Of a DNA stretch of 64,000 bases, positions 33,501 to 60,675 are shown piece by piece (positions within the stretch are counted from its first letter, which is position 1; each line of letters begins with the position of its first letter). The DNA comes from an uncultured Planctomycetia bacterium (GTDB lineage: Bacteria; Omnitrophota; Gorgyraeia; JABMRG01), in contig CAZWMG010000002.1 of assembly GCA_964634945.1 (NCBI GenBank), positions 102,661-166,660 of the forward strand. The letters run 5' to 3'. A model generated the notes under the pieces. It was not told where the DNA came from. It saw only the letters and a program-made list of their open reading frames with translations, and ran no database searches. The position numbers and the translations under genes are program-made.

Positions 33501-36500
33501 CGAGGTTTTCTTAGGTCAACTTAAAGAGACATCCGATCCGATAGGCGCGGAATTCAGGATAAATGATAACAAAGGAATGGCTATAAAAGATATTGCAAAA
33601 CAGACCGAACCTTTTGTTATTGAAACAAGATGGTATAGCAATGAAAAGTTGAGAAAGCAGATTGCCACTAATGAAGCAGGAACAGCGGCTACTACTATCT
33701 ATTATAACCAGCAGACAAACCAGGAAATAGGCAGAATAGTAACCAATGAAGACGGGACATTGATAGTAGATATAGGCGTATTTGAGGGATATGATGAAGA
33801 TCATAACGCTATTGTACAGATGATAGATCCTGTAAGAGCCAGCATGAAGGTACATGAAATAGAGGAACTTGCCACAGAGTTAAGGCAGGGTAATAACTTA
33901 ATTATCAAAAGAGACAATGGCAAGATAAAAATAGGCACGTTTGCCTTTGATCCAAAGGTTATTATGGAACGCAGATACAGCGGACAGTATCTTGTTTCGC
34001 AGGAGACAGAATCAGTTGCCGGAAAATCGTGTATACAGGTATACTATGATAAGAACAGAGTGCGTGAATCGGGCAGGGTAGAAAGAAATGTAATGGGCGA
34101 TCTGGTGGGTATAGGCAGATTTATAGGGTATAACGAAAGAGGAGATGCCTATGTAGTAATGCTTGATCTTAGAAAATTGACATCGTTATCAGGATTAGGC
34201 AGAAATTTAGTTCACATGCTTGAGGAGGGCAAAGAGCTTCCGAATAACTTTGGTATACCTGAGGATGCTATGTTTTTGAAAAATTTAATTGAAACCAGGG
34301 TATATAGCGGTGAAAGATTGATGCACTCTACAATATCAGGAATTACAACATCTGTATTTTACAATAAGGATACAGTTCAGGAGATAGCAAGAATTGAAAG
34401 AACACGCGTGCCTGTATACAAGATAAGTGATAAAGGTAAGGTGACAGGAAGTGAGGCCCTTACTCTAACAGAAGAGGGGGATGTAGATTTTAAAGGCAGA
34501 ATAACCAGCATAGGTACGTTTAAGGGGTATGATAGAGAAGGAACAGGTATCTCTACTGTTGAGATGGTAGATACGCGAAGGGCTGGATTGAGCCATAGTA
34601 AAAAAGGACCAAATAGCAGCAAGCCTGTTGATAGTAGAATTCAAAATATAATGGCAAGATTTATCAAGGGAGAGCCTGTATTTTTGCAAGATGACGAATA
34701 TAAAATATTTCCAAGAGCTATAACAAAAAGGCAATATTCAGCAGAAGACCTTTATATCGAAACAGCTTTTTCAGAGGGTGGTTTGGTAGAAACAGAAGTA
34801 AAATATAAAGAAAACTATAAAGGTGAAAAACTCCTTTCAGAAGAAGGTAGGAAGGCATATGGCGTAGATGGTAGCGACGCTACACGAAAGCGCATGCTAA
34901 GACAGACAGGCCTGCTGTTAGGATATCAGGAAGAAACCGGATTTGCCAAAATAAGTATGAAAGATGAGATTACTGGCAGGGGATGGACAGAGATCCATAA
35001 TGTTGCAGGTATTGTAAAAGAGCATATAGAGGTTGACTCAGAAGGTATACTTGACCGTGCTGTTTATAATTACGATGAAGACTGGTTGGCTACTACAAGT
35101 GAAACAGAGGTTATTGATGGAGATGGAACAATAGCAGGTACATCGTATCGTGGGAAATTTAAAGGTTATATTAATGGTTACGCTTTAGTTGAGCTCCAAA
35201 ACGTGAAGAACGAAGATACGTGGCAGGAGCTTCTTAATCAGATAGGTGAATTAAAAGCAAAGGCACAAGGCATTGTAAAGAATGGTAATTTTATAGCGAC
35301 AACAACGGATGTCTTTGATTACGAAGGGCAATTAGGATTATTAGGCACAACCACAAGTATACATGGATATGAATATGACCCAGCTATATCTTTTATCAGA
35401 AACATGCTGCGTAAAGACACGCAAAACGCGGTTACGGAAAAATACGCTATTGATAGATACGGCATAAAAAGACCGGTAGCAGAGCTGACTAGAGCCGATT
35501 TGATAGATGGGAAACCTCTTATACTTTATCACAGCAGGTTAAATGATTATGCCTGCCAGAGCCTTGATAATAAAGAAGGCCAGGTAAGAGCAAAGATAGA
35601 AGGGCTTATTGTAGAAGGTAAATTTGTGCGCCTTTCTATAGAAGTCCCAAGATATATGGGCGTATTTAAACATTTTGGCCATATGTCAAAAAGCCGTGTA
35701 TATCGATACTTCCAGAAGCAAGATCTGGCAAATGACCTTAAGGTTCTAGAAGGCCTATGGGATTTGCACGCAGATGAGACGGATACAGATATTGCCAAAG
35801 CGCTGATGCAGGAAGGCCTATTAAAATATAAACGCATGTTAAGCAAAGATGGTGCAGCTATCCCCATTGAAGAGTTGACGTTGGATGACTTCATAAGTAT
35901 AAGTAATGATATGATAGATATTAAGAATGTTCCTTTATACCAGACCATTACGCCGCTTTTTCAGCATGCGGTTCAAGAGGCAGAGGATGGCAGAGGAAGG
36001 GTCGCGCTCAAATATACAATGGAAAGACAACAGGATGGTACATTCATAAGGAGAAAAGCGGTGTTTTTGAAGTATTATGATGACAGGAAAGACCCCCGTG
36101 TCCCTACTAGCAGCCCTAAATATGGACTAACTGTCATAGCGGATCACAGCAAGACGAATGCGGTTCATAATAACGGCAGCATAAACTATGGCAGGCCCGT
36201 GGATGAGTCTTTTTTTGAAGGCCTTTATAATAAAATGGTACGCATAAGACAGCATGGTTTTGAAAGTAAATTAACCTCGCTGGTAGACAGGAATGGCTGG
36301 GGCAGGGTTGCTGCTAAGCATGAAGGAGTTCTTGCAGAAGGCGAAGAATGGAACAGGTACGCTAAATTTATAGCTACAAGGCACATACTTAAGCATTATG
36401 ATGACTTCACTGAGAATGGCCTGGGCATACTGCGCGTAGCAGACATGGGCCAGACATATGTAATCACAAGCACGACCAAAGATGGCTCATACATATATGA

Positions 36501-39500
36501 TGGAAATTCACCTTTTAAGGTATCGTGGTTTAAGGAGATAGCAGAAGATGCAGAAATAAAGAACTATATCTTAAACCTTAAGATGTTAGAGTCCTGGTAC
36601 GAAAAGATGGATTCTAATGGATTATTAAGAGAGTTTCTTATTACATATGCGGATATGTCAGGCATGTTCAAGCCTTTCAGAGAAGCATTAAGTGACAAGG
36701 CTGCCCACGATATTGCAAACAAGAACTGGGGCGTAATCAGTGAGAATAAATCCAATGCAAGGTTTGATTTTGATCCATCAGTATCTGAAAAACTTATTTA
36801 TCTATATGGTAAAGACAACTATGGGGTATCTAACATACCGGACATGGTGAAAGGTTTTTATATTGGTTTGGCATATAGTAATGGCAGACTAGATAAGAAG
36901 GATGGCGCCAAAACACTTTTTGATCAATCAGTATTGTATTCGGATCCAAAACTTAATATCAAAGAAGTAGATAGCAAGGGTAATGTTGCGTATTTTCGCG
37001 AAAACCTAATATCTGGCTTACCTCGTATCTTTGTTAAGAATAACAGAGGATTTCCTATAGATGTACGATTTGGATTTATAGATCCGGTTACAGGTGAGAT
37101 GATAACGCAGAAAAGAAGCACGTATAAGTATGGCAAAAAAACGGATATCGCTACTGCCGCCAGTACGTTTTCGATTTTTGATACAAGAGATATGTTCGTT
37201 TCAAGTAAGTCTATCATGAAAGCACTTTTGTCAAATGGCACAATTCTTGCTCAGGAATCTTTATATAGTAGAGTTGGGCTTGGCATCAAGCAGTTTGAAA
37301 AACGTACTAATGCTTATAAAACCAGAGGCTCTAGAAGGGTTATTGAGAATGAAGGTTCAAAATCGACAATAGAACTTAATAGGTGGGGGCTTGAAGAATC
37401 TTCTCAAACGTTGGATAAGGGTGACTACATAACACTCGCGGTCTCTGATGACAAAATAGGCGTAGATAGAAGTAGTTTGTCAGTTCCGGTTAAAGAAAAA
37501 ACAGGCATTATTAAGTATAGAGGGGTTATGCTTAATCCGTATTTTCCCGATAGGGCCCCTGAATATTATGAAATAAGGGAAGTGCTCTATTATAATCAAT
37601 CCGGAGATGTTATGTTTAGAGGTGATGAGTGGAGTGATAGATATGGAAATATTGTTGTAAGGGTTGTAAACAAGCATACTAATGACGGCGACGGATTTAT
37701 AGCGACCTATTTCTTTAACAGGGAAGGTTATAAAGAGTATATTGCAGATAGTGTACTTAGCCAGGATAAGACTAAAAACATAAAGCTTACTTTTTCCAAA
37801 AAAATCGACAAAGAAATCGATGCCAGCGAAAGTGAATATTTATATCTACATATTGACGTGGAACCTTCTTTAGCTGGAGATATCGAGTATTCTCTGATTG
37901 TTAGAGATGAGAATACAGAGGCCATTATTAGCCATGACTCGCTATTTAGTCCCTACAGTGGCAATAAAATGCGAGAACCAACAAGAGAAGATCCTGAGCG
38001 CGAAAGCGCGGTTATCACGAATTCAGAGTGGAAAGAAGACCAATCTGTGCTGGTCTTGCCTGTTAAAGAACTGGTTAATCAGGGTATCGATGTATCGCAT
38101 ATCAGAGATATGGAATTAATATGTAAGTCCGGATTTAACGGAAGGATTAGAATTAGCCCTGTTTACAGGCTTGGCGACGCGACAGGCTTGAGCCGCGTAA
38201 AAGTACCTAAATTAGAACAAGAGGCCTTACCTGTCGTTGCTCTGCGAAGCGCCGGAGAGCATGTGATTAAGAACGCGCGAGTCAACATAGAAGGTAAAAC
38301 TTATTATACGCTTACAAGTATTTATAGTGCTGCTAATACACGTTTACGAGATGAGGTAACTATAGAGTACATAAATGAGCTTAATGGTAAGGCTGAAACA
38401 AAGAGTATCATTATCTATTATGACGAATATGGCAAATATCCGGTTCTGAGCGTAGACAAATTGACGGGAGGCAATCCACGCGCGTATGCGGTAAGAGAAA
38501 AAGATGGATGGATATATATATGTTCCACGCACCCTATTACAAATATAAAGTCAGAAGGCGCTTTTAGCAAACAGGCCTTAAGGGATGATATCCCGGCGTG
38601 GGAAAAGCGCGGTGAATTCGTAATGATAGCGAAGATGGAAAAGGGTATATTGGAATATGACTATAACAAGGCTTATAATACACTTATACAGTATATAGTA
38701 AGGTCGGTTAAGGGTGAAGATGTTGAGCATTACTCCAGTTCTCTTGCGCCGCTTATGACGCCTGATTATCTTATCGAGCTCCTTGATTATACAGGAGAAA
38801 CCCTTGCAAAGGAATTTACCAGAAACATAGATGTTGATGTTCCCGAGTATGATCTTTCTAATATCTCCCCTTACCTATCAGGTGGAGAGGTTTTATCTAG
38901 AATGCAGAGCTTTAAAAAGGCATTTCAGCCTATAATTCAACACCAGGCGCGCGCCCCTGATGATAAAAAACCAACGCTCTTTTTAGACGCAAAAGACTCT
39001 GATATAATGAGCCTATATGATAACAGCATATTAATGCCCGCTTTGTGTATGTCAGGCCAACAGCAAAAGGCAAAAGAGATAATATCGTTTGCCTTATCCA
39101 CCCCACAAGATGCTGAGACCGGTTTAATATATGACCAGTTTTACGCTAAAACAAACCATCCTAAGCTTGGAAGCAGTAGAGACGTTACTTTGCATTCAAA
39201 TGTTTATTTTTTAATCAACTCATTAAGCTACTATCTTGAAACAGGAGACGATGATTTTCTAAAAAGTACAATAGATCTGGCAGATAACCTTATCACAGGA
39301 CAGTTATTAGACCGGGAATCAGGTTTATATTTTGAATCGACAGCGATACAAAGTATGGTAGCGCTCCAGTCTGATTATAGGGAGATTAAAACTGACGACC
39401 AGATCCTTATGCTTAATCTTTGCGATGCGCTGCTAAGTGACCCAATAAGGCAAAATATCGGAAACAAGCGCATCGCGGTAATTGAGAAAACAAGAGACGG

Positions 39501-42500
39501 CATACTATTGGCGCTTAAAGATAAGAAATTAGTAGACTCGGAAAATTCTATTATTTACAGGGGTTTGTATAAAATATTTAAGAAAACAGAAGATCACCCA
39601 TATACTTTGTTAGGTTACGGATTTATGCCAGGGCTCTCAAGCAAGTCATTTTTAAATGTTATTTCGTTTAATGCTGACGGGGATAAGCTCAATTTGAGTT
39701 TCAAAGACGTTTTTGATAGATTCGAGTCTCACTTTATAGTATCAATCGGAAAGATTAATAACGATGTTATTGCCGGACCAAACCTCGCAGGCATTGACCA
39801 GGGCGATGTTATATACACAGAAGAGTTGATGAGCCTAATAAACCTACTCCGCTTGGAGATAGAAAATTCCAGGGATATAAAAAACAAGGATTATTACAGG
39901 AGAAGGTTGGAATTCTATTCAAGGTCTCTCAGTCACATAGTTGATATGTCAAAAAACTCCAGCCTGATGGATATTCCGCTGGTTGTATCCATGCAAGATG
40001 GCAAGATAGCGGATACATCCAAAAAGAGTGTGGCTCACAGGCACAGGGCAGCAATTTTAAATAACCTTTATCGTTCATCAATAGTCACTTCAGCGGAAAA
40101 CTTTTACAGCAGTATAGGGTATTCACCTGAGAAGATACAGGGCGGCACATTTTTCCGAAAGCTAAAGATAGCAGCGGATAGACAGGCATCTATGCAAAAA
40201 TCCGAGACACAAGAGATCTCAGATGAGAGTTCGAAAAAATATATTATCGCCTTTATTCTGATGATAGCGGCGTTGGCATCTCTTGGTATAGCAAGTTCTT
40301 TTTACAAGGCAAAGCCGTACAAGTCGACCAAGCCTTCTCCGAAAGGTGATGACAGCGGTGATGGAGAAGGTACCCCTCCTGCTGATGAAGGCACAAAAGA
40401 AGCTGTTGTGGCAGCAACGGTATCAAGCTTACAGAAAATTACTATAAAGGCACTTGCTATAGTTAAAAAGGCGAGCCTGCCGAAAAAACTGATGATCTTA
40501 GCTGTTATGTTAGCAATACCGCTCTTACTATCTAATCCGGCATTGTGTGCTGGATTAGGTCTTCTAACTCAACAATCAGTTGTTGCCCTTACCGGTCTGC
40601 CGCTGATATCTTCCGCTTTGAATTGGATAAGCTCATTAGGTGCGGTTAAATTAATATATATCGCGGTATCGCTTGCCTTTCCGGCGTTAATCCTTGCTTC
40701 AAATTACATAACCTCTTTCGCAAGAAAGATATGGTTTAGCACTAAGATGCGCAGTATCGCAAAAGATGGCAAAGCCAAACTGTACGATAAAGATGACATG
40801 GAAATAGCCCTTACCAGGTGGAACAATATGATTAATATGACCAGCGATGTTTCAGATAAGGAAAATAACGTTGTTGTAAATCACCCCAGAGTAAGGAAGG
40901 CAGACGGACCGATTGAGGTAAATTTCCTTTTTAGTCTTCGGGTTATTTATACATTGGCATTAAAACAACATAAAGAAGAAACAAAATTAAGCGATGACGA
41001 TCTTATAACAAAGACAGATGACCCGCTACTTAATGGCCTTGACACTTTTGTACTTATGGTTGGAATGTATATGCGTAAGGTTATCTATGACTCAAAAAGA
41101 GATGAGAATGGCCAATTAGTAGATAGTAACCACATATGGTCAAGGCTCGAATCTTATTTTTATGAAAAGAGAGAGCTTCTAAGAGATGCGATGTCACAAA
41201 ACAATAAAGCGGAATTTAATGATATACTGATAGATATGGGGATTGCCCCGATAGCGCAAAAGAGCGCAACAAATGAAGCGATATTGGAGATAGTCGAAGG
41301 TTATGGAGATGCAAGCTCTGAGGAATTCAGAGACGAGCTGGCAGAAAGAATAGGTGTTTCAGCTGAAGATCTGGGTGTAAAAAAGTTTGTAGAGGATTTT
41401 GAGAATTTTACTATACAAGAGGATTTGGCAAAACCTATCCATCCATGGGCGCTGCTCGCCGCGCGGCTATTGCCAAGGTTCCTGCTTGCTGCGGTTGGAG
41501 CGCTTATATTTAAGGCAGAGGCATTAGGCGCCACTGGTTTCTTAGGTGCTTTTATCGCAGGCCCATTAGCAGCTTTATGGCCTTATCTTGCTATTGCGGG
41601 AATAGTTATTATTCTGGGCTCATTGCTTAATCTGTATATTGGTAGGCATGCTAAATTAAATAAACTATCCGGTACATTAGGCACTGTTTCGCGTCTTACA
41701 AAAATAGGCGCATTAATCGGGCTTACATGCCTTGTTGCCGCTATTTCGCTTACGCCATTAGCTGCGGCAGGCGCTCCTTTAAGCATAATGTGGTTAGCCA
41801 AGCTTATTATAATCAGCTATCTTACTTTCGAAACATTTAGCCAGATATTCTTCAGGCATTCAATAACATGGCTTTCTCTTAGGTATCATTTCTCACCAGC
41901 TGTATCTACGGGTGGCCCTGGTTCTGTCATATCATATGTTACTTTATACGCGCTTACAATAGCTTTCGGAGCGCTTATGGGATTTAGTACTTATAATTTC
42001 TTTGTACAGTTTCAAGCTTTAGATACAATAGGAAGTTTCTTGCAATTAGTAGGGGGAGTGCTTGTATTTATTAATACCTTATATTTGACTAATTATGGTT
42101 TCTGGCAGATGCTTACCGGTGCAGCTTCAGGGGCCGTAAAGTTCCCACTTCAATTATCAGCCTTGATACTTTCTGCCGGAGTCTTTACCTTTGCCTTGCC
42201 GGCATTCTTACCGATTATACCTATTGCCGTGTTACTGATAAATAAGGTTATTAGTTGGATAGTACCTTTAAATAAAAGAAAGCGCCTAAAAGATGAGGCT
42301 GATGAGCAAGATAAAAAGACAGTTCTTGTATATATGGGCGGTGACGCGCTTGGCATGTTCATTAGATTGGCTGATCCCGTAGGGGAATTTATTAACAGAT
42401 GGAAAGCCTTAAGAGGAGAGAATTCCGAAGTTCTTAGTGCAATCAGAAAAGAACTTGGCTGGAAGGGCCTTACTTCGGAGAAAGAATTAGAGGTAGTAAG

Positions 42501-45500
42501 AAAATGCCTGGAAGCATTAAATGCAGCGGAACAAAAAGATAAAGTTAGCCTATTCCATTTGAAGCAGCTTGAAAAAGAATCTGATATGCCAAATATTTTG
42601 AAGATAAATCCAGGTACAGAAGAAAATAAGAAGCTTATAATAGATGGCTGGAGAATAAGAAGGCATCTGGTGGAGATGCTTGGTAAGGCAGGCTATGCTC
42701 AGGATACAGGGATTAATCTTGCAGAACAGGCAGAAAGAATAGGCCAGGATAAAAGCCTAAGCGGTAAGGTATTATTCTATTTCATGCAGAATAAGTATAA
42801 TATGGGCACCGGAGGTGAACCGTATAATTTGAAAACCATAGGGCTTGCTGATGGAAATGATTTAGGCCAGAGAGAACTTCTGGCATTGTTGGTGGAATAT
42901 TTCTTAGGTAACGCAAACAAGGATACGGAACTTATAGATCCCCCTAAAGCGGCATATGTATTATATGACTGGACGCCGTTTGGTTTTAAATCCGCTGCTA
43001 TGAACGCTATTGATATGGTTCCCGAGCACTCATCAGATATAGGTTCTATGGTTGTTATGGACAGGGATGCCACGGTCCATGATCTGGATAGTTATATATA
43101 TGATTTAAAACGAATACGCCGTGATGAAGAGATCGCGATAATAGTGCCTGGCAGGGGAACTACCAACACGCTTACTACAATAGGCAAGGCTTCACAGCTT
43201 ATAGAGGAAGGCCATAGATCGTATTTAAGCGGTGTAATGGGGCTTTTAGGCGGAACTCAGGGCGAGTTCGTTGGTACAGGATGGGGCAACATGTTAAGAG
43301 TTACCATGGCAGAGTCTCTCGAAGCGCTAGGTGCTCCGGATTACCCAACACCTTCCATTACCAAGGCGTTACGAAAAAAACATAAAGGATTCTTTGATAG
43401 GTTATTTGCCAATAGTTTTGGCCTTAGAGGGTATGTACCGAATGCGGTTGGTATAAGCGAAGATATTTGGGCTGTTGTTCAGGCCGGTGAAACGCAGATC
43501 GGACTTGGTAGAATTCCGAAGATGCTCGTATCCAAAGCCTTTTGGCACAAGATACGAGAGACCTTTACTCACGCGGAATGGTTTACAGCCTTTCCAAGGT
43601 GGTCAGGCGGCCTTATGCAGATGAACAATGATATTATTATGCAAAGAGCAACATTCTTTGGTCCGTTTAGTGTCTTTGCAAAAGAGGTGAGGCAATTAGG
43701 GGGCGATTTCTTCACTAGTTCACCTTTCGCGCTTCTTAATATATTGATAATGACCGTTGCGGTATGGGGAGGATTCAGCCCGTTTTATGGTATCCTGCTT
43801 GGTTTTTGGCTTGTAGGGTTTGTGTTTACTAATATATTAATGGTTCATGGGCTCATAGCTTATCTTGAAGGAAGCGGCTTTAATACCATAACAGCATTAG
43901 CCTCAGGTCTTATAGTTGGGGCTTTAATGCCATGGAACCTGCCTCTTATCGCAATAGGTTTTGTTCTTGGAGGATTCATCGTAGGCGGTAGTAAGTGGTT
44001 ATTAAGCAGGCCAAGGGATATGATATTATTTCCTTTACAGCTTGTTATACACGCCTTTGCGCAGATTAAAAACGCCTCTTTGATATCTGTTAAGGCCGCA
44101 AGAAAGCTGGAATCTATGGCAAGTAGGGTCAATGATAACGCAGGTGCATGGGTAAAAGATGCTTCAGAAAGAATGTCTCTCAAGTTTGGCTTATCAGGAG
44201 CAGCATTACCTGTTTCTAGCATAATAGATATACCTGCGGTTAAGAGTGATACCAAGAAAAACTTTATAAGCATGCGCAACATAGCATTTTTAGGAGCCGG
44301 GTCTGTTTTGATAAGCATGGTTGCAGTATACGCGCTTAATATCCAAAATGTTGTAATGCTTTTGGCGGGATTGATATTTAGTGTAGGTATTCTTGAAGGG
44401 CCAAATTATACAAATTTAAAAGAAGGTGGTTATTGGATACGGAATGAATATATGCGGAGAATAGTTGTTTTTGCGCTTAATATTATGCCAAAGGTAGCAG
44501 GAGCAACAGTTGCCGTAACAACGCTTGTGTGTTTACATTTCGCCAGAATTATGCTCCTAACCAATCCATTGGCCGCAGCTATACTCTTTTCTTCAGCTAT
44601 CGCTATAGCAGGCATTGTATATGGCGTATGGAGAAGTACAGATCATTATAAGGTAATAGCTCTACATAAAGCTATCTTGAAAAAGGCTAAGGATAATAAG
44701 AGTATTTTAGAAAGTATGCATCTAAAATATGGCTCAAATGTAGAGTTTAATGACATGACTAACCTGGTAAAGAATAATTACAGGGATATGCTATATGATA
44801 TTGTAACAAGCAAAGAGTATAAAGGCCCAGAAGCATTTGTGAACCACTTAAAAGACTTAAAAGACTTAAAAGACTCAAAAGACTCAAAAGACTCAAGAGG
44901 CTCAAAAGACTCAAAAGACTCAAAAGACTTAAAAGCCTCAAAAGAGAAAGACTTAAGAAAAATAATTATAAGTAAAAGCTTGAAAAAATTAGATACAAAT
45001 TTACTGATTAAGAGAGAGATAAGAACCAGGCTTGTTTCAGAGTTTATCCGCTCGTATAGGCTTAATCTACTTTTGTTCGTATGGATATTTCTCCCAAGTT
45101 TACCGGCGAATATTAATTACTTTCTGCATTCAGGAGGAGACCGTATAATAGAAACAGCATCAGAGTTTTTCAAGCCATTTGTCTTGCCTCTGCAGGTAAT
45201 GTTTTATTATATATTAGCAGGGCAGATTGTTGGTTCTGTGCAGCTTGCATATTGGAAAAACAGGACAGTTAAGATTACAAGGGGTATCGACAGGTTACCG
45301 TTAACAGGCAATAGACAAAAAGCAGAGGCATTATTGTCTTTACTTAAGATATATCTGGAGCAGAGGAGTTATGGTTATGTAAAGAAGACATACAATGATA
45401 TTAAGCTTGTTTTGGGTGCAACGCTTGATTCGTCTCCGATAGAGAGTACACAGGACGATTCTCCATCGCAATCGCTATCACAAACAGCTACTGGTTTTGA

Positions 45501-46583: not shown

Positions 46584-49500
46584 ATGTTTAATAAAGCAAG
46601 AAAAGCTTTTTCTTATTTAGTATTATTTTCTTTCTTTTTGAATAATACAGCTTATGCGGAAATTGCTAACAATTCTACATTGCGATGTATATCTTCTGCC
46701 AATGCACACATTGGGCAGAAGATAGCAAGCAACTTTTTAAATGCCCCACCTGATATAAAATCTTCAAACATTAAAACCTCCTCATCCGGCATTATAACTC
46801 CTGAAGATATATTCACAAGAAAACTCGCGTTAGCGATAATTAAGCCGGATGTCAGTTCTGATATAAATAAAAACATAGCAGCGAATAAGAGCCTCTTTAG
46901 CAGGGATGATATAATACGAGAGCTTGAAGATAAGGGTTTCGAAGTAATAACTACTTTACCTGCAAACGTTTTAACCAGAAGAGATGCGGAAGAGTTCTAC
47001 TCAGAGCATAAAGATAGGCTATTTTTTAGCGATCTTATTGAATATATGACATCAGATGAAAGTGTACCGGTTATATTGCGAGGCCCGGAAAACGCATGGC
47101 AGAAGTTAAGAAATGTTTTAGGGGTAGTGGATGGTAACGAGCAAAATACTTTAAGAGAAAAACTTGGCGCGCATAGGAAACAGCTTCCCGGCAATGTTAA
47201 TATCATATACAACAGAATACATGGATCTGATTCATTTCAGTCAACACTTAGAGAGATTCTTTTCATTGCGGATAAGATGCAAAGTACGCCTTTTCTTGGA
47301 TCCGGCGAAAAACTGCTCATGTCTTTGTCATTGGAATCAGATAGGGCATATTTCTCAGCACTTTACAGGCAGTATAAGCTTCAGTTGCTTGTATTAAATA
47401 GAGCACGTTTCTTAATCAATGCGGATGCTTCGCTGACAAAAGACGACGCTCTTGTAAGAGCCACAGCTTCGATAACAGCTGAACTGAAAAAAACAGGAAG
47501 AGATAAAGACGCCTTAATATTAGCGGATTCCAAGCCGCTTATTATTGGTCAAAGCTTTTTTCCTTCAGCACTACTTTCAGATAAGGATTTTAGAGATAAG
47601 CTAGGAGCGGTTCAATATGATGATATTGCTAATGACCCTAGAAACATAGAGGCCGCGACAGGTGTAACAATGGTACAAAATCCATTAAATGGCGGCATAG
47701 GCCAGGCAATGGACAGGTTGGGTTTCTTAGAGGCTATTTGGCCGGCAACCGGGCGAATAGGAGTGCCTGTGCTTGGCGCAAAGGCTATGGACTGCTATTT
47801 TAATGTTAAGGTAGTAATAAATGGCCAGGAAAAAGAAGCATTTGTAAGCGTTGCTGAAGCTACTATACTCTCTCTTCTTAACGAAGTAGAGAGAGGCTCA
47901 TATAGGCATGGCATCTTAGAGGAGTTTATAAGTAGTGAAACAAGCCAGGCAATGGAAGATCTTAAAAATACAGTATATCTTTACGATAGGCTCGACCCTT
48001 TTAAAGCCGACAAGAGGACATATGGCAATATACTTAAAGAGAAGAATATGTTAGGAATAATGCCGGAGCAGGCGATGTTTCCGCGTTTTGACGTAGAAGA
48101 TAACTACAGGCTTACTGATAAGTATACAGCTCCTGGAAGCCATGGACATTGGGGCGTTTATGCGCTTTCTAACATACCTGATGAAGAACTTCCACAGGAT
48201 GGGAGTATTCAGATAAGGAGCATATTTAATGGCGATGGCATATCTAATTCACCGAACAATGTTATAGCAGGTTGGATGGCGAGAGAAGGCGCGCCTGTTA
48301 TAATGATAACAACCACAAGAGCTCCGATAGATGTAAAGGGTGGTATGTTGGGCGTGGAATATTTAGATGATGAAAAGGTTAGAAAAAATATGCTTGAATT
48401 AGCAGATGCAAAGACAAACGACAAGGAGCAATCTGGTCAGGCTGAACTCTTCAAAAATATGGGTATCTCTGAAACGGGTAAAAATTTTGGCAAAGAAGGC
48501 ATGCAGCTTTTTAATACTAACACAGTGCTCTTGAATGATACAGTTTTGCAGCCATTTTTAAGAGAGTTACGAGAGACACTTGGCATAGAAGAATATAACA
48601 GGGCGATAAGCCCAAAGATGATGATGAAATCTGTTGTACAGAAAGATGGCAAAGAGTATGCCCAGTTAGAAGGCGCTATGGGTTCTTCAATGCTTAATCT
48701 TGCCGGATTTTTATCTACAAATAATGACCCACAGATAATAGACTTATGTAAAAAACATGGCATAGATCCAAATCTATTTTTACGTTTAGTCAATATAGAC
48801 GTAAATAAGAGGACAGATTTCTTCGCTCCTATAAAATTTCCTATAGATTACTGGTTGCAGTTTTTTAGTGACCATTTTACAGTCGATACAACTACATGGA
48901 AGCTTAAGAACCTAAGGCCCGGCCATCTGCCAGCCCTGGATACGCCGGATCAGGATAAGGATGAATACTACTCGAATGTGCTTAATCTGTTTAACCTTTT
49001 TGGAGATAAGGGTGTATTAAATAAAAATAATCCTGTAATGACAAGTACAATTGGCCTTGATCTGCTAAAGCTACGCGGTAAGGTTAAAATAGCCGGTTCA
49101 ATACTACGGGGAAATGTTGTAGTGATAAATGAGGGCGATGGTGTTGCTGATTTAACTACTGGCGAGATACAAACGAAGTTGCTTGCCGATAACATGGTAA
49201 GCCTGGATAATGGCAAGCTGGTCTTAGAGGATGTTGCTATAGTAATAAGGGAGAATGGTAAGGATATAAAAGCAGCTAAGTTGCAAAATAAGGAAAGCAT
49301 AGATATTGTAGTTTCTGCGTTAGTTTCAGATAAGGCCTCCTCAGCAGGCATGAATCAGGAAACAGATATTCCAGCCATCAAGAGTATTGTTCACCAAGCT
49401 AGAGCCGCTCTGACGCAAGAGCGCAAGAAAGGCATAGAATTCGGAACCAGCGGTTTTAGGGGTATAAATAGTTTAAATGAATTAACCGTAGCTATTACAG

Positions 49501-52415
49501 CGCAGGCAAACGTGGATTATATAAAAGAAGCTGGTGACAGAGATAAGGTATTTGTTATCGGCAGGGATACCAGAGAACAGGGGAATGACTTTATTATGAT
49601 TACCGCGGCAGTATTTGCTGATAATGGCATAAAAGCAGTTATCTCGGACGGATATACACCAACTCCTGTAATTGCACATGCCACTGTTGCTAATGCATAT
49701 GGCGGAGCTATAAATTTTACTGCAAGTCATAATCCCCAAGAGTATAAAGGATACAAGTTTACCCCCTCGCATGGCGGGGCTGTGCTACCGGAAGTAACCG
49801 ATGTAATACAGTCGAAAACGAACGATTACCTAAAGCGATTGGAGTCGGATAGCGGAATTATAGCTGCCTTGAATAGCCCATACCTAAAAGCTGCTTTGAG
49901 TTATAAGGAGATGTTTGAGTCTTTTGTTAATTCCGGTGATATTAAATTCATCGATCCAGTAGAGGCTTATGTAGAGTATCTTTTTGGTCTTGAGATGCAA
50001 GGTGTAAAGATATTTGATAAGGTAACAGATTCCCGGCTTGGTGTTATAGCAAGCGGCTTGCATGGAACAGCAGGCCCTTATTTTGAGCGCATCTTTGGCC
50101 CAAAAGGATTAAATAAGCTGGCAGTAGATGTTTTAAATAGAGCGCCAAGAGAAGACTTCGGCCGTTTTAAGAGCCCCGAGGCAAAAGAAGCAAATCTTAA
50201 GGATGTAGTAGATCTTGTCACTAGGCTTGATAATGTGTTAGGTGTTTCAGGTGACGGTGATGCAGATAGAGAAGGAATTATCGATATAAATAGCAAGTTT
50301 ATAGAACCGAATGAATTAGCTGCTATATTTTATTGGTATCTTCATGAGATAAAGGGTCTAAAAGGCGGCGTTGCAAAGACTGTGGCGACTACGAACCTTC
50401 TTAATGTGTTAGCAGGTACGTTTAATGAAGAATGTTATGAAAAACAGGTAGGTTTCAAGAATTTTATGAATGAGATACTTAGCGGAAAGGCTATTGTGGC
50501 TGCGGAATCGAGCGCTCACATAGGAATAAACGCTGTGTCCTGGGATGACGCTTTTTTATGCGCTCTATTAACATATCAGATACTCTCTGATAAGGACAAT
50601 ATTAAGGAGAAGACAGGCGTTGAATTGAAAGCCCTTACCGATATCTTAGATTATATACAGAATAAGGTTGTTAGCAGTTATTTTAGTTTTTATGAGGGCA
50701 AGATACCGGCTGATGAGGCGACAAAGAGCCTGCTTTTAAGCTGGAATCAAAGCCCCGAGATGCTTAGCAGAAAGCTTGGTGAGGAGCAATTGTTATCTAT
50801 CTTGCAATACAATAATTTAGAGGTAGCTCAGATAAGCACTTTGCCAAAAAAGGGGATAAAGGTTGTTCTTAAGGATAGAAGCTGGCTCTGCCTAAGGCCT
50901 TCAGGCACTGAACCGCTGGTAAGATTATATGCGGAAGGGGCAGATAAGGCTGCGCACGAGGCGTCTAAAAAGAAGGAAATTCTTAAAAAGATAGCTCAAG
51001 CTTTATTGAAGGTTGATAAGGAGAAGCAGTCATTAAAGGCCTCCTCATCCGGCACTCAGAGCGCCCAGGATAGTGTAGAGTTAAGCTCTATCAGCAGACT
51101 TTTTTCTCAATTTGTATCCGAAAAGAATCCAGATACTTTAAGAAGTTTGATAAAAACAGCCAGAGAAGCTATGAGGGATACTTATGCAAATCCAGATAAG
51201 AAAGAGATTCTTCACAATGCAATTCTTTTTGCGGAGATGAGATTACTTAGTGAATTTCCGCCAGAATCAACAAAAGATAAGAAGAAACTCCTTTCTAAAT
51301 ACGCGGAATTGGAAAGGCAGTGGCAGAAAATGTTTGAAAAAATGTCACAAGATGCCTATAAAGTTTCAAAACGATATTTTCCAGATGAGTATAATGTGTT
51401 GCAATATAAGCTCAAGATGTATAAGGATTTTTTAGTTGTGCTTAAGCAAGATATGGAAGAGCTAGAAGATAAATTGCTACAGCAGATCTCAGATGCAAAA
51501 TCCTCCTCAAGTGGTGAGAGCAAACTCTCCGCTGAGAGAGCGGATGCTATTGAGGCAGAGCTTGGACATCTCTTTGATATTACAAGAGAGACTATGATAG
51601 AGGGTCTAGCAAAACCACCTATTGTAAAAATTGATCTAGCGAGAGATGATTTCCTGTCTATTGAATTTGCGCTGCTGCTGGAGAGATATAGGCAGATGGC
51701 TGTAAAAGAGTTTGGGGAAAATATAATAATGGATATCTTGCCTAGTAGAAATGGGAACGAAGGCGTGCGTGTGGGCATATCAGTAAAACCAGATAGCGCA
51801 GCAGTTGAATATAAATCTTCCTCATCTGGTATATTGCTTACTGAAAATGATTTAGGCCTTATTGAACTCGCCGCTGATGTAGCGGACCTAAGTGACGCAA
51901 CAGGTACAATAGTATACGATGATACAGCAATGTCAACAGAACAGCAGGGAATATTACGGAACCTTTTAGGCAAGGGTACACAAGGTTTAGCTGACCTAGA
52001 GGCAAAACTGGGATGTGATGTAAGGCTAATGTCACAAGGCGATGTATCGGATAACGCGAATACAATAATAATCTCAGACGGAGAAATTCCGGGTTTTCTT
52101 AATGCCAAATACTTAATCACAGAGCAGACACAGATAGATACTAGTTATATCGCGGTAACTCCTCTCATAGCGATAGCAAAAGGATTATTGGGGCTAGACA
52201 ACATAACAAGCCAGCCGGAACTATATGAAGCCCTTAAGAGTTCAATAAGAAGCATAAGTCAAGGCCTTCTAAATGCAAGCGATATAGAAGCTGCCATAAC
52301 CGCCTATATAAATGGCAGCCCAATGCTTGTAAAATTACCGCCTGCGTCAGTATATGATTATGATAAGCTTGAGCAGTTGTATCGTCAGGCGCTTATGGTA
52401 TTGATCTCCGCGTAA
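46584..52415 (+). CDS. 1,943-aa fusion protein: nucleoside-diphosphate kinase domain + eukaryotic-type UTP-glucose-1-phosphate uridylyltransferase (UDPGP family) domain + phosphoglucomutase/phosphomannomutase domain + Lys/Glu-rich C-terminal region. It has an N-terminal signal-peptide-like segment.
   Basis: NDK (~46815-47250): KLALAIIKPD...GFEV...FYSEHKDRLFFSDLIEYMTSDESVPVILRGPENAWQKLRNVLG...NRIHGSDS. UGPase (~47450-48950): LNGGIGQAMD (LNGGLGTSMG), APGSHGHWGVY (PPGHGDIY), FNGDGISN, TRAPIDVKGGML (TRADVKGGTL), FNTNTVLL (FNTNNLWI). PGM (49430-50990): GIEFGTSGFRG, TASHNP, GDGDADR, RPSGTEPLVRLYAEG. SD GTGGGGGATAAG before ATG. Signal: MFNKARKAFSYLVLFSFFLNNTAYA. Confidence 0.88.
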   Translation: MFNKARKAFSYLVLFSFFLNNTAYAEIANNSTLRCISSANAHIGQKIASNFLNAPPDIKSSNIKTSSSGIITPEDIFTRKLALAIIKPDVSSDINKNIAANKSLFSRDDIIRELEDKGFEVITTLPANVLTRRDAEEFYSEHKDRLFFSDLIEYMTSDESVPVILRGPENAWQKLRNVLGVVDGNEQNTLREKLGAHRKQLPGNVNIIYNRIHGSDSFQSTLREILFIADKMQSTPFLGSGEKLLMSLSLESDRAYFSALYRQYKLQLLVLNRARFLINADASLTKDDALVRATASITAELKKTGRDKDALILADSKPLIIGQSFFPSALLSDKDFRDKLGAVQYDDIANDPRNIEAATGVTMVQNPLNGGIGQAMDRLGFLEAIWPATGRIGVPVLGAKAMDCYFNVKVVINGQEKEAFVSVAEATILSLLNEVERGSYRHGILEEFISSETSQAMEDLKNTVYLYDRLDPFKADKRTYGNILKEKNMLGIMPEQAMFPRFDVEDNYRLTDKYTAPGSHGHWGVYALSNIPDEELPQDGSIQIRSIFNGDGISNSPNNVIAGWMAREGAPVIMITTTRAPIDVKGGMLGVEYLDDEKVRKNMLELADAKTNDKEQSGQAELFKNMGISETGKNFGKEGMQLFNTNTVLLNDTVLQPFLRELRETLGIEEYNRAISPKMMMKSVVQKDGKEYAQLEGAMGSSMLNLAGFLSTNNDPQIIDLCKKHGIDPNLFLRLVNIDVNKRTDFFAPIKFPIDYWLQFFSDHFTVDTTTWKLKNLRPGHLPALDTPDQDKDEYYSNVLNLFNLFGDKGVLNKNNPVMTSTIGLDLLKLRGKVKIAGSILRGNVVVINEGDGVADLTTGEIQTKLLADNMVSLDNGKLVLEDVAIVIRENGKDIKAAKLQNKESIDIVVSALVSDKASSAGMNQETDIPAIKSIVHQARAALTQERKKGIEFGTSGFRGINSLNELTVAITAQANVDYIKEAGDRDKVFVIGRDTREQGNDFIMITAAVFADNGIKAVISDGYTPTPVIAHATVANAYGGAINFTASHNPQEYKGYKFTPSHGGAVLPEVTDVIQSKTNDYLKRLESDSGIIAALNSPYLKAALSYKEMFESFVNSGDIKFIDPVEAYVEYLFGLEMQGVKIFDKVTDSRLGVIASGLHGTAGPYFERIFGPKGLNKLAVDVLNRAPREDFGRFKSPEAKEANLKDVVDLVTRLDNVLGVSGDGDADREGIIDINSKFIEPNELAAIFYWYLHEIKGLKGGVAKTVATTNLLNVLAGTFNEECYEKQVGFKNFMNEILSGKAIVAAESSAHIGINAVSWDDAFLCALLTYQILSDKDNIKEKTGVELKALTDILDYIQNKVVSSYFSFYEGKIPADEATKSLLLSWNQSPEMLSRKLGEEQLLSILQYNNLEVAQISTLPKKGIKVVLKDRSWLCLRPSGTEPLVRLYAEGADKAAHEASKKKEILKKIAQALLKVDKEKQSLKASSSGTQSAQDSVELSSISRLFSQFVSEKNPDTLRSLIKTAREAMRDTYANPDKKEILHNAILFAEMRLLSEFPPESTKDKKKLLSKYAELERQWQKMFEKMSQDAYKVSKRYFPDEYNVLQYKLKMYKDFLVVLKQDMEELEDKLLQQISDAKSSSSGESKLSAERADAIEAELGHLFDITRETMIEGLAKPPIVKIDLARDDFLSIEFALLLERYRQMAVKEFGENIIMDILPSRNGNEGVRVGISVKPDSAAVEYKSSSSGILLTENDLGLIELAADVADLSDATGTIVYDDTAMSTEQQGILRNLLGKGTQGLADLEAKLGCDVRLMSQGDVSDNANTIIISDGEIPGFLNAKYLITEQTQIDTSYIAVTPLIAIAKGLLGLDNITSQPELYEALKSSIRSISQGLLNASDIEAAITAYINGSPMLVKLPPASVYDYDKLEQLYRQALMVLISA

Positions 52416-52543
52416 TAGCTATTTACAAAGCGATAAGTTTACATTTTGAGTATTGCACTATTTTGTAAAGCTTGATCTCCGCGTAATAGCTATTTACAAA
52501 GCGATAAGTTTACATTTTGAGTATTGCACTATTTTGTAAAGCT
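52401..52543. repeat. 81-nt tandem duplication (52401..52481 and 52482..~52543) that recopies the last codons plus the TAA stop of the fusion gene, together with the 34-nt palindromic element
   Basis: ttgatctccgcgtaatagctatttacaaagcgataagtttacattttgagtattgcactattttgtaaagc occurs twice back-to-back. The second copy diverges into the RBS of the next gene. Confidence 0.85.
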
Positions 52544-52552
52544 AAGGATAAT

Positions 52553-54352: not shown

Positions 54353-54456
54353 CTTTTATCTGGCAGTTGCGCGGCTAATAAAACAGGAGTTTCAGAAGGT
54401 TTTTTTTGAGGAAAGGAGGGCAAAAAATATAAAAGCGGAAATAACAGGATTTTAGC

Positions 54457-54485
54457 TTGACGTAAAGAATATATTTTGTTAAACT
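54457..54485 (+). promoter_or_regulatory. Candidate sigma70 promoter: TTGACG - 17 nt - TGtTAAACT
   Basis: TTGACG 54457-54462, then TAAACT 54480-54485 with an upstream TG. Strong SD AAGGAGG 8 nt before ATG 54565. Confidence 0.4.
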
Positions 54486-54564
54486 AACTACCATTCATTA
54501 TTTTAAAAGAGTGATTTTTCACATAGATTATAACGATTAAAATATTCAAAAGGAGGATGAGAGC

Positions 54565-55209: not shown

Positions 55210-55218
55210 ACATAGAAG

Positions 55219-55270
55219 AATAGGAGATAGCGCCTCTTTTTGTCATAAAGAAAAGGCGCTCTTCCTATTT
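55219..55270 (+). terminator. Imperfect GC-cored hairpin (AGCGCC...GGCGCT with extended A/T pairing) followed by a T-rich tract
   Basis: aataggagatAGCGCCtctttttgtcataaagaaaaGGCGCTcttcctattt, located 10 nt after the stop at 55209. Confidence 0.45.
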
Positions 55271-55285
55271 ATCCGAGGTAATATT

Positions 55286-56572: not shown

Positions 56573-56701
56573 GTTCGTATAACGTTGTGCGTGATGCGTA
56601 TTGCGCAATGCTAAAACCGCAATACCTGCCTACCGGCAGGCAGGCGCGATACGAGATACTCAATACGAATATTATATAATAATACTTAATAAGGAGCAAT
56701 A

Positions 56702-58012: not shown

Positions 58013-58143
58013 AGGGGACGCCCCTGAGCATGGAAATAGATAAAATTTTGCAAAAATAATAAATTTGTGCAACATGCAATAATATATATATAGTTAAGCA
58101 AAATATAGTTATCAGAAAACTAAAAAAACGATAAAACTCAATC

Positions 58144-58166: not shown

Positions 58167-58184
58167 AAAAGTTTTAGGAATAAG

Positions 58185-59078: not shown

Positions 59079-59079
59079 A

Positions 59080-60673: not shown

Positions 60674-60675
60674 GT

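What the first reader, a model, noticed from the sequence alone, without database searches (positions are those of the whole stretch)
40240..44650. Eukaryote-type (GT48, FKS1/callose-synthase-like) beta-1,3-glucan synthase module at the C-terminus of the giant protein
The catalytic-core blocks FDRLF...RG.....ISEDI(F/W)A...Q.G.GR are diagnostic of GT48 callose/FKS glucan synthases. They occur here with correct order and spacing, sandwiched between multi-TM bundles as in FKS1. GT48 is overwhelmingly eukaryotic (fungal wall glucan, plant callose). Bacterial curdlan synthases are GT2. A GT48-like synthase fused into a giant envelope protein would be a new arrangement.
Basis: partly seen in the sequence, partly recalled or inferred. 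Interest (0 to 1): 0.9.

Follow-up and report, generated by a model that had tools for sequence, protein, structure and literature searches.

The report
Orphan cellulose-synthase-like module in giant protein
The C-terminal membrane module of this 14,300-residue Omnitrophota protein looks like a membrane-embedded polysaccharide synthase of the cellulose/hyaluronan/chitin-synthase type, from a family no sequence database recognises; it is not a demonstrable eukaryote-type GT48 (FKS1/callose) glucan synthase.

Summary
They lie in a ~480-aa soluble domain between two transmembrane bundles.

The GT48 assignment fails every test I could run:
- No Pfam or NCBIfam hit, even at E<=10, for the window or 17 homologues.
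- No profile-profile similarity to fungal FKS.
- Two of the four "diagnostic" blocks (FDRLF, Q.G.GR) are not conserved in 69 homologues.

Family-invariant residues fall where the catalytic signature belongs: N-K-Y, K-A-G, D-x-D/N, S-E-D at a finger helix, and RWxxGxxQ.

The family has 264 cluster representatives in Omnitrophota and Verrucomicrobiota. It usually sits near the C-terminal end of 3,000-7,500-aa proteins; three relatives tested had no Pfam domain. Sugar-nucleotide genes lie next to it here and in some relatives.

Verdict: a new, sequence-orphan branch of the cellulose-synthase-fold glycan synthases. The functional class is supported and GT48 membership is not. The substrate, the product and whether it is processive are inferred.

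The parts
3520..46422 (+). Giant ORF (14,300 aa) that carries the module near its C-terminus
   Evidence: ORF list; translation
40243..40698 (+). First hydrophobic cluster (aa 12242-12393, about 3-4 TM helices). It marks the start of the finding. It lies outside the stretch conserved in relatives.
   Evidence: hydropathy; tblastn conservation begins at about aa 12415
40762..41442 (+). Conserved soluble domain of ~230 aa (aa 12415-12641) N-terminal to the TM bundle. Fold not determined.
   Evidence: tblastn matches in 36 related loci start here; no Pfam hit
41443..42261 (+). N-terminal TM bundle (aa 12642-12914, ~7-8 helices). It ends in the K/R-rich stop-transfer sequence NKRKRLK, which places the following domain in the cytoplasm.
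42262..43701 (+). Predicted cytoplasmic GT-A glycosyltransferase domain (aa 12915-13394), including a poorly conserved helical N-terminal sub-domain (aa ~12930-13080)
42787..42801 (+). Q-N-K-Y-N motif at the end of the first core strand (N13091 in 68/69). It occupies the position of the GT2 'YNE' / Fks1 Y849-x-E851 nucleotide-binding motif.
   Evidence: conservation; strand 445-452 of the model; equivalence inferred
42988..42996 (+). K13157-S/A-A/G (K invariant, 69/69), 24 residues before DxD. It is the counterpart of the K in BcsA HAKAGN (20 residues before DCD) and of Fks1 K1082 (20 residues before DAN).
   Evidence: equivalence by position, inferred
43060..43068 (+). D13181-R-D13183 at the end of a beta-strand, the DxD position. 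D is 69/69. The third residue is N in 60/69 relatives (DxN).
43177..43245 (+). Long helix aa 13220-13242 with invariant E13229. Candidate interface helix IF1.
   Evidence: H581-603; assignment inferred from BcsA/Fks1 architecture
43393..43407 (+). It is specific to this window and not conserved in the family.
43456..43503 (+). S13313-E13314-D13315 (68/69, 69/69, 69/69) at the N-terminus of a helix (aa 13314-13328). Counterpart of the TED/NED 'finger helix' catalytic motif.
   Evidence: H675-689
43549..43560 (+). K13344-x-R13346-E13347 (67/69, 69/69, 68/69), 29-32 residues after the ED aspartate
   Evidence: possible counterpart of Fks1 K1246-G-R1248-D or BcsA A-T-E-S (inferred)
43597..43617 (+). 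R13360-W13361-S-G-G13364-x-x-Q (R, W and G each 69/69) at the start of a helix. Counterpart of the GT2 QxxRWxxGxxQ acceptor-binding motif. The Q position holds A or S.
   Evidence: H722-731; hmmsearch aligns it to BcsA RIRWARGMVQ, not significant
43705..44634 (+). C-terminal TM bundle (aa 13396-13705), conserved in relatives
46584..52415 (+). Adjacent gene: fusion of NDK, a divergent UDP-sugar-pyrophosphorylase-like region and phosphoglucomutase/phosphomannomutase. Candidate supplier of the sugar-nucleotide donor.

Best explanation
Residues ~12,415-13,705 of the giant protein (window ~40762-44634) form a membrane-integrated glycosyltransferase of the cellulose-synthase-like fold.

Architecture: a cytoplasmic GT-A domain is inserted between two TM bundles. 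It carries, in canonical order, a nucleotide-binding N-K-Y motif, an invariant K-A/S-G, D-x-D/N, an S-E-D catalytic motif on a finger helix, and an RWxxGxxQ acceptor-binding helix.

Proposed mechanism (inferred):
1. It binds an NDP-hexose on the cytoplasmic face. The donor is most likely UDP-glucose, made by the neighbouring NDK / pyrophosphorylase-like / PGM fusion protein.
2. D13315 acts as the catalytic base of an inverting (beta-forming) transfer.
3. The growing chain, stacked on W13361, is pushed through a channel formed by the flanking TM helices, as in BcsA, hyaluronan synthase and chitin synthase.

The module belongs to a sequence-orphan family confined, as far as sampled, to Omnitrophota and Verrucomicrobiota. 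There it usually lies near the C-terminal end of very large proteins that appear to be largely unannotated.

Shown: the fold class, the motif order, the invariance of the motif residues, and the family's distribution. Inferred: activity, donor sugar, linkage type, processivity and export.
For: 1. Structure.
- The AF2 model of aa 12640-13720 has mean pLDDT 72.6 and pTM 0.78, with the catalytic core at 70-93.
- Foldseek against PDB gave 27 hits at E<=1e-3. Ranks 1-47 are all membrane-integrated GT2 synthases (HAS, CesA, BcsA, Chs, CslF6), nearly all with probability 0.98-1.00. Cyclic-glucan synthase is rank 48.
- Alignments of 400-470 residues exceed a ~250-aa GT-A core, so they include TM and interface helices.
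- Even the weak first model (pLDDT 57.5) returned only this class at the top.

2. Catalytic signature. In 69 homologues the invariant or near-invariant residues are N13091, K13157, D13181, R13212, E13229, G13254, W13255, S13313, E13314, D13315, K13344, R13346, E13347, R13360, W13361 and G13364.
- They sit at the canonical secondary-structure positions: DxD at a strand end, SED at a helix N-terminus, RW at a helix start.
- Spacings are comparable with known enzymes. K to DxD: 24 here, 20 in BcsA, 20 in Fks1. ED to RW: 45 here, 39 in BcsA and PgaC.

3. Topology. The K/R-rich NKRKRLK follows the last TM helix before the domain.

4. Genomic context.
- The next gene fuses NDK, a UDPGP-like region and PGM/PMM I-IV. 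The LNGGxG and KGG motifs of the UDPGP-like region line up with a true UDPGP.
- Three verrucomicrobial loci have a bona fide UDPGP (E 2e-117) about 5 kb downstream. One locus is followed by an ORF with an NDP-sugar epimerase/dehydratase domain.
- Eight loci have a GH42-like glycosidase neighbour, and the window has two GH2-type proteins.

5. Family. 264 representatives at E<=1e-3, many inside proteins of 3,300-7,500 aa.
Against: - No sequence method links the family to any GT family. Pfam and NCBIfam are negative. PDB phmmer and hmmsearch are negative. hhalign against BcsA, PgaC and OpgH is negative.
- The fold assignment rests on one AF2 model built from a 28-sequence alignment.
- Foldseek TM-scores are low (0.16-0.24 normalised to the query, 0.24-0.43 to the target) and Foldseek rmsd values are large.
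- I had no model coordinates, so I could not verify that the motif residues cluster in space.
- The Q of QxxRW is replaced by A or S, and the first 'D' by N.
- The high-scoring neighbours PcManGT, TarP and SpsA are not processive exporters, so processivity is not established.
- The sugar-nucleotide neighbour gene is not conserved across the 39 related loci. UDPGP is present in only 3 of them.
Confidence: 0.62

Rival explanations
1. One reading: the module is a true, if remote, member or sister of GT48 (Fks1/callose synthase) and makes beta-1,3-glucan.
For: - Fks1 has the same cellulose-synthase-like architecture (PMC10499315). It appeared at rank 24 (E 0.12, highest TMq 0.28) for the first, low-confidence model.
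- 60 of 69 family members have D-R-N at the DxD site, like the metal-independent D-A-N of Fks1.
- The DxD to ED spacer is 133 aa, nearer to Fks1 (119) than to BcsA (96) or PgaC (92).
- An invariant K-x-R-E lies 29 residues after ED and resembles Fks1 K1246-G-R1248-D, which lies 24 residues after ED.
- hhalign with these shallow profiles cannot link Fks to BcsA either, so the negative result is weak evidence.
Against: - No PF02364 or FKS1_dom1 hit at E<=1 for the window, and no GT hit at E<=10 for 18 members.
- hhalign probability is below 1% against a fungal FKS profile, in both local and global modes. hmmsearch of the family HMM against 120 FKS sequences scores <=2.6 bits.
- The family has the GT2-type invariant RWxxGxxQ. 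Fks1 has QMLSREYY at that position.
- The N-terminal half of the domain is compact: 66 aa between the first motif and the invariant K, against 58 in BcsA and 233 in Fks1.
- The FDRLF and Q.G.GR blocks are not conserved.
Confidence: 0.08
2. It is an active membrane GT-A transferase but not a processive polymer exporter. It would add single or few sugars to a lipid carrier, to a periplasmic glucan primer, or to the giant protein itself (as do PcManGT, DPMS, GtrB and ArnC).
For: - The Q of QxxRW is missing.
- No BcsB-like, BcsC-like or outer-membrane export partner was seen next to the gene.
Against: - The longest structural alignments (404-479 residues) are to true polymerases/exporters: HAS, BcsA, CesA, CslF6 and Cgs.
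- The finger-helix SED and RW are invariant, and there are large TM bundles (>=12 helices) on both sides.
- Foldseek ranks 1-47 are all polymer synthases.
Confidence: 0.2
3. It is a degenerate, catalytically dead GT-like membrane anchor or scaffold for the giant protein.
For: - The sequence has diverged beyond recognition by every profile library.
- Signature residues are non-canonical: N in place of the first D, A/S in place of Q, and DxN in most members.
Against: - Residues at the catalytic positions (D13181, E13314, D13315, R13360, W13361, K13157) are 69/69 invariant across two phyla at ~25-50% overall identity. This is the pattern of purifying selection on an active site.
- DxN is compatible with activity in Fks1.
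- Sugar-nucleotide genes lie nearby.
Confidence: 0.06

Closest known systems
Membrane-integrated processive GT2 synthases (bacterial BcsA, plant CesA/CslF6, hyaluronan synthase class I, chitin synthase)
   Same: - GT-A domain on the cytoplasmic face, set between TM helices.
- Motif order is nucleotide-binding motif, then K-A-G, DxD, (T/S)ED on a finger helix, and RWxxGxxQ on an interface helix.
   Different: - No detectable sequence similarity to any GT2 Pfam model.
- Q of QxxRW is replaced by A or S. The first D is replaced by N. Most members have DxN.
- There are ~35 extra residues between DxD and ED.
- There are more TM helices (about 7-8 before and 6 or more after the domain).
- No PilZ domain and no BcsB-type partner.
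- It is embedded in a 14,300-aa polypeptide.
Fks1 / callose synthase (GT48)
   Same: - Same overall cellulose-synthase-like architecture.
- ED motif.
- DxN (metal-independent type) in most family members.
- Long DxD to ED spacer.
- Large multi-TM protein.
   Different: - No PF02364 or FKS1_dom1 match.
- No profile-profile signal.
- Not among the top structural neighbours.
- RW motif is present here but absent in Fks1.
- Lacks the ~170-aa insertion of Fks1 between the first nucleotide-binding motif and K1082.
- Bacterial (PVC) rather than eukaryotic.
Cyclic beta-1,2-glucan synthase Cgs (GT84)
   Different: - In Cgs the GT module is N-terminal and is followed by a GH94-type phosphorylase domain. 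Here the module is C-terminal and the remainder is unannotated.
- No sequence similarity was detected.
Omnitrophota giant proteins ('Archaeovorin' type; West-Roberts et al. 2023, bioRxiv 10.1101/2023.11.21.568195)
   Same: - Giant ORF with divergent SecA domains, many TM helices, and sugar-metabolism domains or neighbours.
- The best homologue is from a Candidatus Omnitrophica MAG.
   Different: That paper reports GT5 and GT1 domains and emphasises cell-wall degradation. It does not mention a cellulose-synthase-like or glucan-synthase membrane module. A 2026 preprint on Omnitrophota long proteins does not mention one either.

Membership tests
GT48 (Glucan_synthase PF02364; Fks1/CalS) | Significant match to the Glucan_synthase (PF02364) profile | tested here: not met
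   Pfam scan of aa 12001-14300 at E<=1 returned only weak HEAT hits. None of the 18 family members hits PF02364 at E<=10. All fungal controls carry PF02364.
GT48 (Glucan_synthase PF02364; Fks1/CalS) | FKS1_dom1 / accessory domain N-terminal of the TM region | tested here: not met
   No Pfam hit in aa 12001-12640. The structure of this stretch was not modelled.
GT48 (Glucan_synthase PF02364; Fks1/CalS) | Profile-profile or HMM similarity to the Fks catalytic region (Fks1 818-1316) | tested here: not met
   hhalign probability 0.05-0.4%. hmmsearch scores <=2.6 bits against 120 FKS sequences. Caveat: only fungal FKS sequences were available, and the same method fails to link Fks to BcsA.
GT48 (Glucan_synthase PF02364; Fks1/CalS) | Fks1 as the nearest solved structure | tested here: not met
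GT48 (Glucan_synthase PF02364; Fks1/CalS) | D-A-N (DxN) in place of DxD, with metal independence | tested here: inconclusive
   The window has D-R-D, while 60 of 69 relatives have D-R-N. Metal dependence cannot be tested here.
GT48 (Glucan_synthase PF02364; Fks1/CalS) | Conserved blocks RGG-SKA...(N/S)EDI(Y/F)AG...Q-x-GKGRD with fixed spacing | tested here: not met
   Only S-E-D-x-W is conserved. FDRLF, RG and Q.G.GR are not. Q.G.GR lies 11 residues after the ED aspartate, against 21 in Fks1.
GT48 (Glucan_synthase PF02364; Fks1/CalS) | Product is beta-1,3-glucan made from UDP-glucose | not testable with these tools
   Requires an enzyme assay and linkage analysis.
Cellulose-synthase-like fold, membrane-integrated processive GT-A synthases (GT2 type) | GT-A fold catalytic domain | tested here: met
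Cellulose-synthase-like fold, membrane-integrated processive GT-A synthases (GT2 type) | GT domain inserted between TM helices, with the structural alignment extending into the TM and interface helices | tested here: met
   404-479 residues align to HAS, BcsA, CesA, CslF6 and Cgs. There are TM bundles on both sides.
Cellulose-synthase-like fold, membrane-integrated processive GT-A synthases (GT2 type) | D, DxD, (T/S)ED, QxxRW signature in order | tested here: inconclusive
   DxD/DxN, SED and RW are present, invariant and in order, with plausible spacing. However, the first D position holds N13091 and the Q position holds A or S. Residue equivalence is by position and secondary structure, not by superposition.
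Cellulose-synthase-like fold, membrane-integrated processive GT-A synthases (GT2 type) | Sequence membership in CAZy GT2 (Pfam Glycos_transf_2, Glyco_tranf_2_3, Cellulose_synt, Chitin_synth_2) | tested here: not met
   No such Pfam or NCBIfam hit at E<=10 in 18 members. dbCAN HMMs were not available.
Cellulose-synthase-like fold, membrane-integrated processive GT-A synthases (GT2 type) | Processive polymerisation coupled to translocation | not testable with these tools
   Needs biochemistry or cryo-EM.

The most novel reading that the evidence does not exclude
The family is a previously unrecognised bacterial lineage of cellulose-synthase-fold enzymes that sits between GT2 and GT48. It combines the GT2 RWxxGxxQ helix with GT48-like traits: a metal-independent DxN site, a long DxD to ED spacer and a K-x-R-D/E motif. 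It could therefore be the closest prokaryotic relative of the eukaryotic Fks/callose-synthase family. In PVC bacteria it would be used to spin out a glycan from the membrane anchor of giant surface proteins.
Probability: 0.1. Interest if true: 0.85.

Novelty: new variant of a known kind. Interest (0 to 1): 0.55.

Why it matters
1. Giant Omnitrophota proteins have been read mainly as tools for attachment and for degrading prey cell walls. A conserved polysaccharide-synthase/exporter-like module at their membrane-anchored end would mean these proteins, and the ~4,300-aa proteins of Verrucomicrobiota (the three tested have no Pfam domain), also build a glycan. That changes how they should be studied.

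2. The family is invisible to Pfam and NCBIfam, and CAZy-type sequence annotation would probably miss it too. Its ~260 cluster representatives would add a new branch to the cellulose-synthase-fold enzymes. This may be a new CAZy GT family, and it is currently uncounted in carbohydrate-cycling surveys of soils, groundwater and lakes.

3. Its mix of GT2-like and GT48-like active-site features makes it a useful outgroup for asking where eukaryotic GT48 came from.

Tried and rejected
- Pfam and NCBIfam on the module, and Pfam on the rest of the giant protein, found nothing relevant. The only Pfam hits in the giant protein were SecA, LysM and weak HEAT.
- phmmer and profile hmmsearch against PDB sequences returned only chance hits, or none.
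- hhalign of the family (18- and 69-sequence profiles) against a 19-sequence fungal FKS profile was negative in local and global modes. hhalign against E. coli BcsA, PgaC and OpgH was also negative. The Fks-versus-BcsA control was negative too, so these negatives carry little weight.
- hmmsearch of the family HMM against 120 FKS sequences plus BcsA, PgaC and OpgH gave noise. The one point of interest is that the RW motif aligns to BcsA RIRWARGMVQ.
- The first AF2 run, on the 557-aa domain with 18 sequences, was too weak to use (pLDDT 57.5).
- The search for related loci with A1 failed because no block was conserved enough. It was repeated successfully with a trimmed alignment.
- Conserved synteny with the NDK-UGP-PGM gene: not found in 39 related loci.
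- Literature searches for the GT48 motif strings, and for a prior description of this module, found nothing.
The FDRLF block is not conserved in the family in any case.
- I considered mapping K13344-x-R-E to Fks1 K1246-G-R1248-D as GT48-specific evidence. I rejected it as decisive because BcsA has A-T-E485-S at the equivalent distance after the ED aspartate.

Full report
**Observation**

The window holds one uninterrupted ORF, 3520-46422 (+), encoding 14,300 aa. Translating its C-terminal 2,300 codons and scanning hydropathy gives this layout:
- a TM cluster at aa 12242-12393 (window 40243-40698);
- a soluble stretch;
- a TM bundle at aa 12642-12914;
- a ~480-aa soluble domain at aa 12915-13394 (window 42262-43701);
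- a second TM bundle at aa 13396-13705;
- a ~590-aa tail.

The description and coordinates are therefore correct.

**GT48 tests**

- Pfam-A at E<=1 on aa 12001-14300 returns only weak HEAT hits. NCBIfam returns nothing.
- None of 18 family members hits any glycosyltransferase family, even at E<=10.
- phmmer and a family profile against all PDB sequences find nothing relevant.

I then compared the family with Fks directly.
- I confirmed that my Fks1 818-1316 sequence is identical to PDB 7XE4.
- I collected fungal FKS proteins, all carrying PF02364, and aligned 19 of them.
- I ran hhalign against the family with 18 sequences and with a 69-sequence alignment of Neff 4.7. Probabilities were 0.05-0.4%.
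- hmmsearch of the family HMM against 120 FKS sequences scores <=2.6 bits.

One caveat applies. With these shallow profiles hhalign does not connect Fks to BcsA either, although the two are known structural homologues (PMC10499315). Sequence negatives alone therefore cannot exclude very remote kinship.

In 69 homologues:
- FDRLF is not conserved (5-9 of 69 per position).
- The R of 'RG' is present in 3/69.
- In 'Q.G.GR' the Q is present in 7/69 and the last R in 18/69.
- The Q.G.GR block lies 11 residues after the ED aspartate, not 21 as in Fks1.
- Only S-E-D-x-W is conserved (68, 69, 69 and 58 of 69).

Three of the four 'diagnostic' blocks are therefore coincidences of this one sequence.

**What the family conserves**

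The invariant or near-invariant residues are N13091, P13101, K13157, D13181, R13182, D13195, R13212, E13229, G13254, W13255, S13313, E13314, D13315, K13344, R13346, E13347, R13360, W13361 and G13364.

In order, these read:
- (I/L)-Q-N-K-Y-(D/N);
- K-(A/S)-(G/A);
- D-R-(N/D);
- P-G-R;
- E-E-G;
- G-T-G-W-G-N;
- I-S-E-D-x-W;
- H-K-x-R-E;
- (A/S)-F-P-R-W-S-G-G-x-x-Q.

This is the order of the processive beta-glycosyltransferase signature: nucleotide-binding motif, K-A-G-N, DxD, TED, QxxRWxxGxxQ.

Spacings, compared with E. coli BcsA and PgaC (fetched, measured) and with Fks1:

| Interval | This window | BcsA | PgaC | Fks1 |
|---|---|---|---|---|
| K to DxD | 24 | 20 | not measured | 20 |
| DxD to ED | 133 | 96 | 92 | 119 |
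| ED to R(W) | 45 | 39 | 39 | ~51 |
| First motif to K | 66 | 58 | not measured | 233 |

**Structure**

- The first AF2 model (557 aa, 18 sequences) was poor, with pLDDT 57.5. Even so, it returned only GT-A membrane synthases at the top of the Foldseek list, with Fks1 at rank 24 (E 0.12).
- A second model of aa 12640-13720 (1,081 aa, 28 sequences including representatives) reached mean pLDDT 72.6 and pTM 0.78, with the catalytic core at 70-93.
- In that model D13181 ends a beta-strand, S-E-D caps the N-terminus of a helix (the 'finger helix' position), R-W opens the next amphipathic helix (the IF2 position), and K13157 opens a helix after a strand.
- Foldseek against PDB gives 27 hits at E<=1e-3. 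Ranks 1-47 are exclusively hyaluronan synthases, plant and bacterial cellulose synthases, chitin synthases and CslF6, nearly all with probability 0.98-1.00. Cyclic glucan synthase is rank 48, and Fks1 is not in the top 50.
- Alignments of 400-480 residues go well beyond a GT-A core, so they include membrane helices.

Caveats: Foldseek TM-scores are low (0.16-0.24 by query, up to 0.43 by target). I also had no access to coordinates, so I could not check that the motif residues cluster in space.

**Family and context**

- A profile search of 1.84 billion representatives finds 264 proteins at E<=1e-3. Many are 3,300-7,500 aa long with the module usually near the C-terminal end.
- Three of these proteins (4,357, 3,784 and 1,173 aa) have no Pfam domain at all.
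- Thirty-nine genomic loci come from Verrucomicrobiota (Limisphaerales, Pedosphaera) and Omnitrophota MAGs, at 41-54% identity. The closest protein is from a Candidatus Omnitrophica MAG.
- Conservation starts at about aa 12415, so a ~230-aa soluble domain upstream of the TM bundle belongs to the module.
- In the window the next gene (46584-52415) fuses NDK, a divergent UDP-sugar-pyrophosphorylase-like region and PGM/PMM domains I-IV. The pyrophosphorylase-like region scores below the Pfam cutoff. However, its LNGGIGQAM and D-x-KGG motifs line up with a true UDPGP.
- Downstream of that lie two GH2-type TIM-barrel proteins and a sugar ABC importer.
- The fusion gene is not conserved beside the module elsewhere. 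Even so, 3 verrucomicrobial loci carry a genuine UDPGP (E 2e-117) about 5 kb downstream. One locus continues into an ORF with an NDP-sugar epimerase/dehydratase domain. Eight loci have a ~1,400-aa GH42-like neighbour; this includes 7 of the 22 loci with at least 3 kb of downstream sequence.
- The K/R-rich NKRKRLK after the last TM helix before the domain argues that the GT domain is cytoplasmic.

**Interpretation**

The best-supported reading is a membrane-integrated GT-A glycosyltransferase with the cellulose-synthase-like architecture.
- Donor: an NDP-hexose. UDP-glucose is the leading candidate from the genomic context.
- Chemistry: D13315 as catalytic base and W13361 as acceptor platform.
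- Export: probably extrusion of a beta-linked chain through the flanking helices.

The fold class, motif order, residue invariance and family distribution are shown. Activity, donor, linkage, processivity and export are inferred.

Three rivals remain:
- True GT48 kinship. Points in favour: DxN in 60/69 members, the long DxD to ED spacer, and K-x-R-E. Points against: the RW motif, the compact N-terminal half, and no profile or structural preference for Fks1.
- A non-processive transferase like PcManGT.
- A dead scaffold, which the invariance of the active-site residues makes unlikely.

**Novelty**

The two papers on Omnitrophota giant proteins that I checked report GT5, GT1, starch-synthase and PGM domains. 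Neither mentions a cellulose-synthase-like or glucan-synthase membrane module. No Pfam or NCBIfam model covers the family.

I therefore rate it a new variant of a known kind: a sequence-orphan branch of the cellulose-synthase-fold synthases, fused to giant proteins. It is not a bacterial GT48. Interest is moderate to high for glycobiology and PVC biology, and well below the 0.9 that a genuine prokaryotic GT48 would have deserved.

Noticed in passing
window 46584-52415 (+): A 1,943-aa fusion protein. It contains nucleoside-diphosphate kinase (aa 106-228), a divergent UDP-sugar-pyrophosphorylase-like region (LNGGIGQAM and D-x-KGG motifs; Pfam UDPGP E 4e-4, below cutoff) and PGM/PMM domains I-IV (aa 951-1460). 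About 480 C-terminal residues are unassigned. It looks like a one-polypeptide route from hexose-6-P to NDP-hexose, with NTP regeneration.
   Followed up: partly
window 11215-14973 (giant aa 2566-3818): SecA preprotein-binding and SecA P-loop domains (aa 2566-2979) are followed by a second cluster of ~8-10 TM helices (aa 3220-3593) and then LysM (aa ~3765-3818). This matches the 'divergent SecA' feature reported for Omnitrophota giant proteins. About 8,600 residues between the two TM clusters have no Pfam hit.
   Followed up: partly
window 40762-41442 (giant aa 12415-12641): A soluble ~230-aa domain just upstream of the N-terminal TM bundle is conserved together with the synthase-like module in 36 related loci. 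It has no Pfam hit and its fold was not modelled.
   Followed up: no
window 44845-44952 (giant aa 13776-13811): Low-complexity K/D/S run (HLKDLKDLKDSKDSKDSRGSKDSKDSKDLKASKEKD) in the C-terminal tail. Weak HEAT-repeat hits lie further on, at window 45751-45879.
   Followed up: no
window 52517-63209: Downstream same-strand genes: a 611-aa ORF with a faint fucose-pyrophosphorylase hit; two GH2-type TIM-barrel proteins (55286-56572 and 60676-62571) flanking a sugar ABC importer (SBP 56702-58012, permeases 58185-60053); and three small ORFs with no hits. Upstream, 174-3275 is an AcrB-family RND pump.
   Followed up: partly
L006, L007, L013, L020, L026, L028, L030, L037 (about 12.1-17 kb in each locus): In 8 related (mostly verrucomicrobial) loci the gene that ends with this module is followed directly, on either strand, by a ~1,400-1,500-aa protein with a GH42-like (beta-galactosidase family) domain. 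One of these also has TSP3 repeats. In L026, L028 and L037 a genuine UDPGP and a cNMP-binding protein come next.
   Followed up: partly
L001 12142-20448: In L001 (its record is labelled uncultured Clostridia) the module-bearing ORF is followed by, and overlaps, another huge ORF (over 2,700 aa). That ORF has DUF218, radical-SAM and NDP-sugar epimerase/dehydratase domains.
   Followed up: no
window 43860-44318 (-) and 23112-23582 (-): Antisense ORFs of 152 and 156 aa lie inside the giant gene. They are probably spurious shadows of the long coding frame.
   Followed up: no
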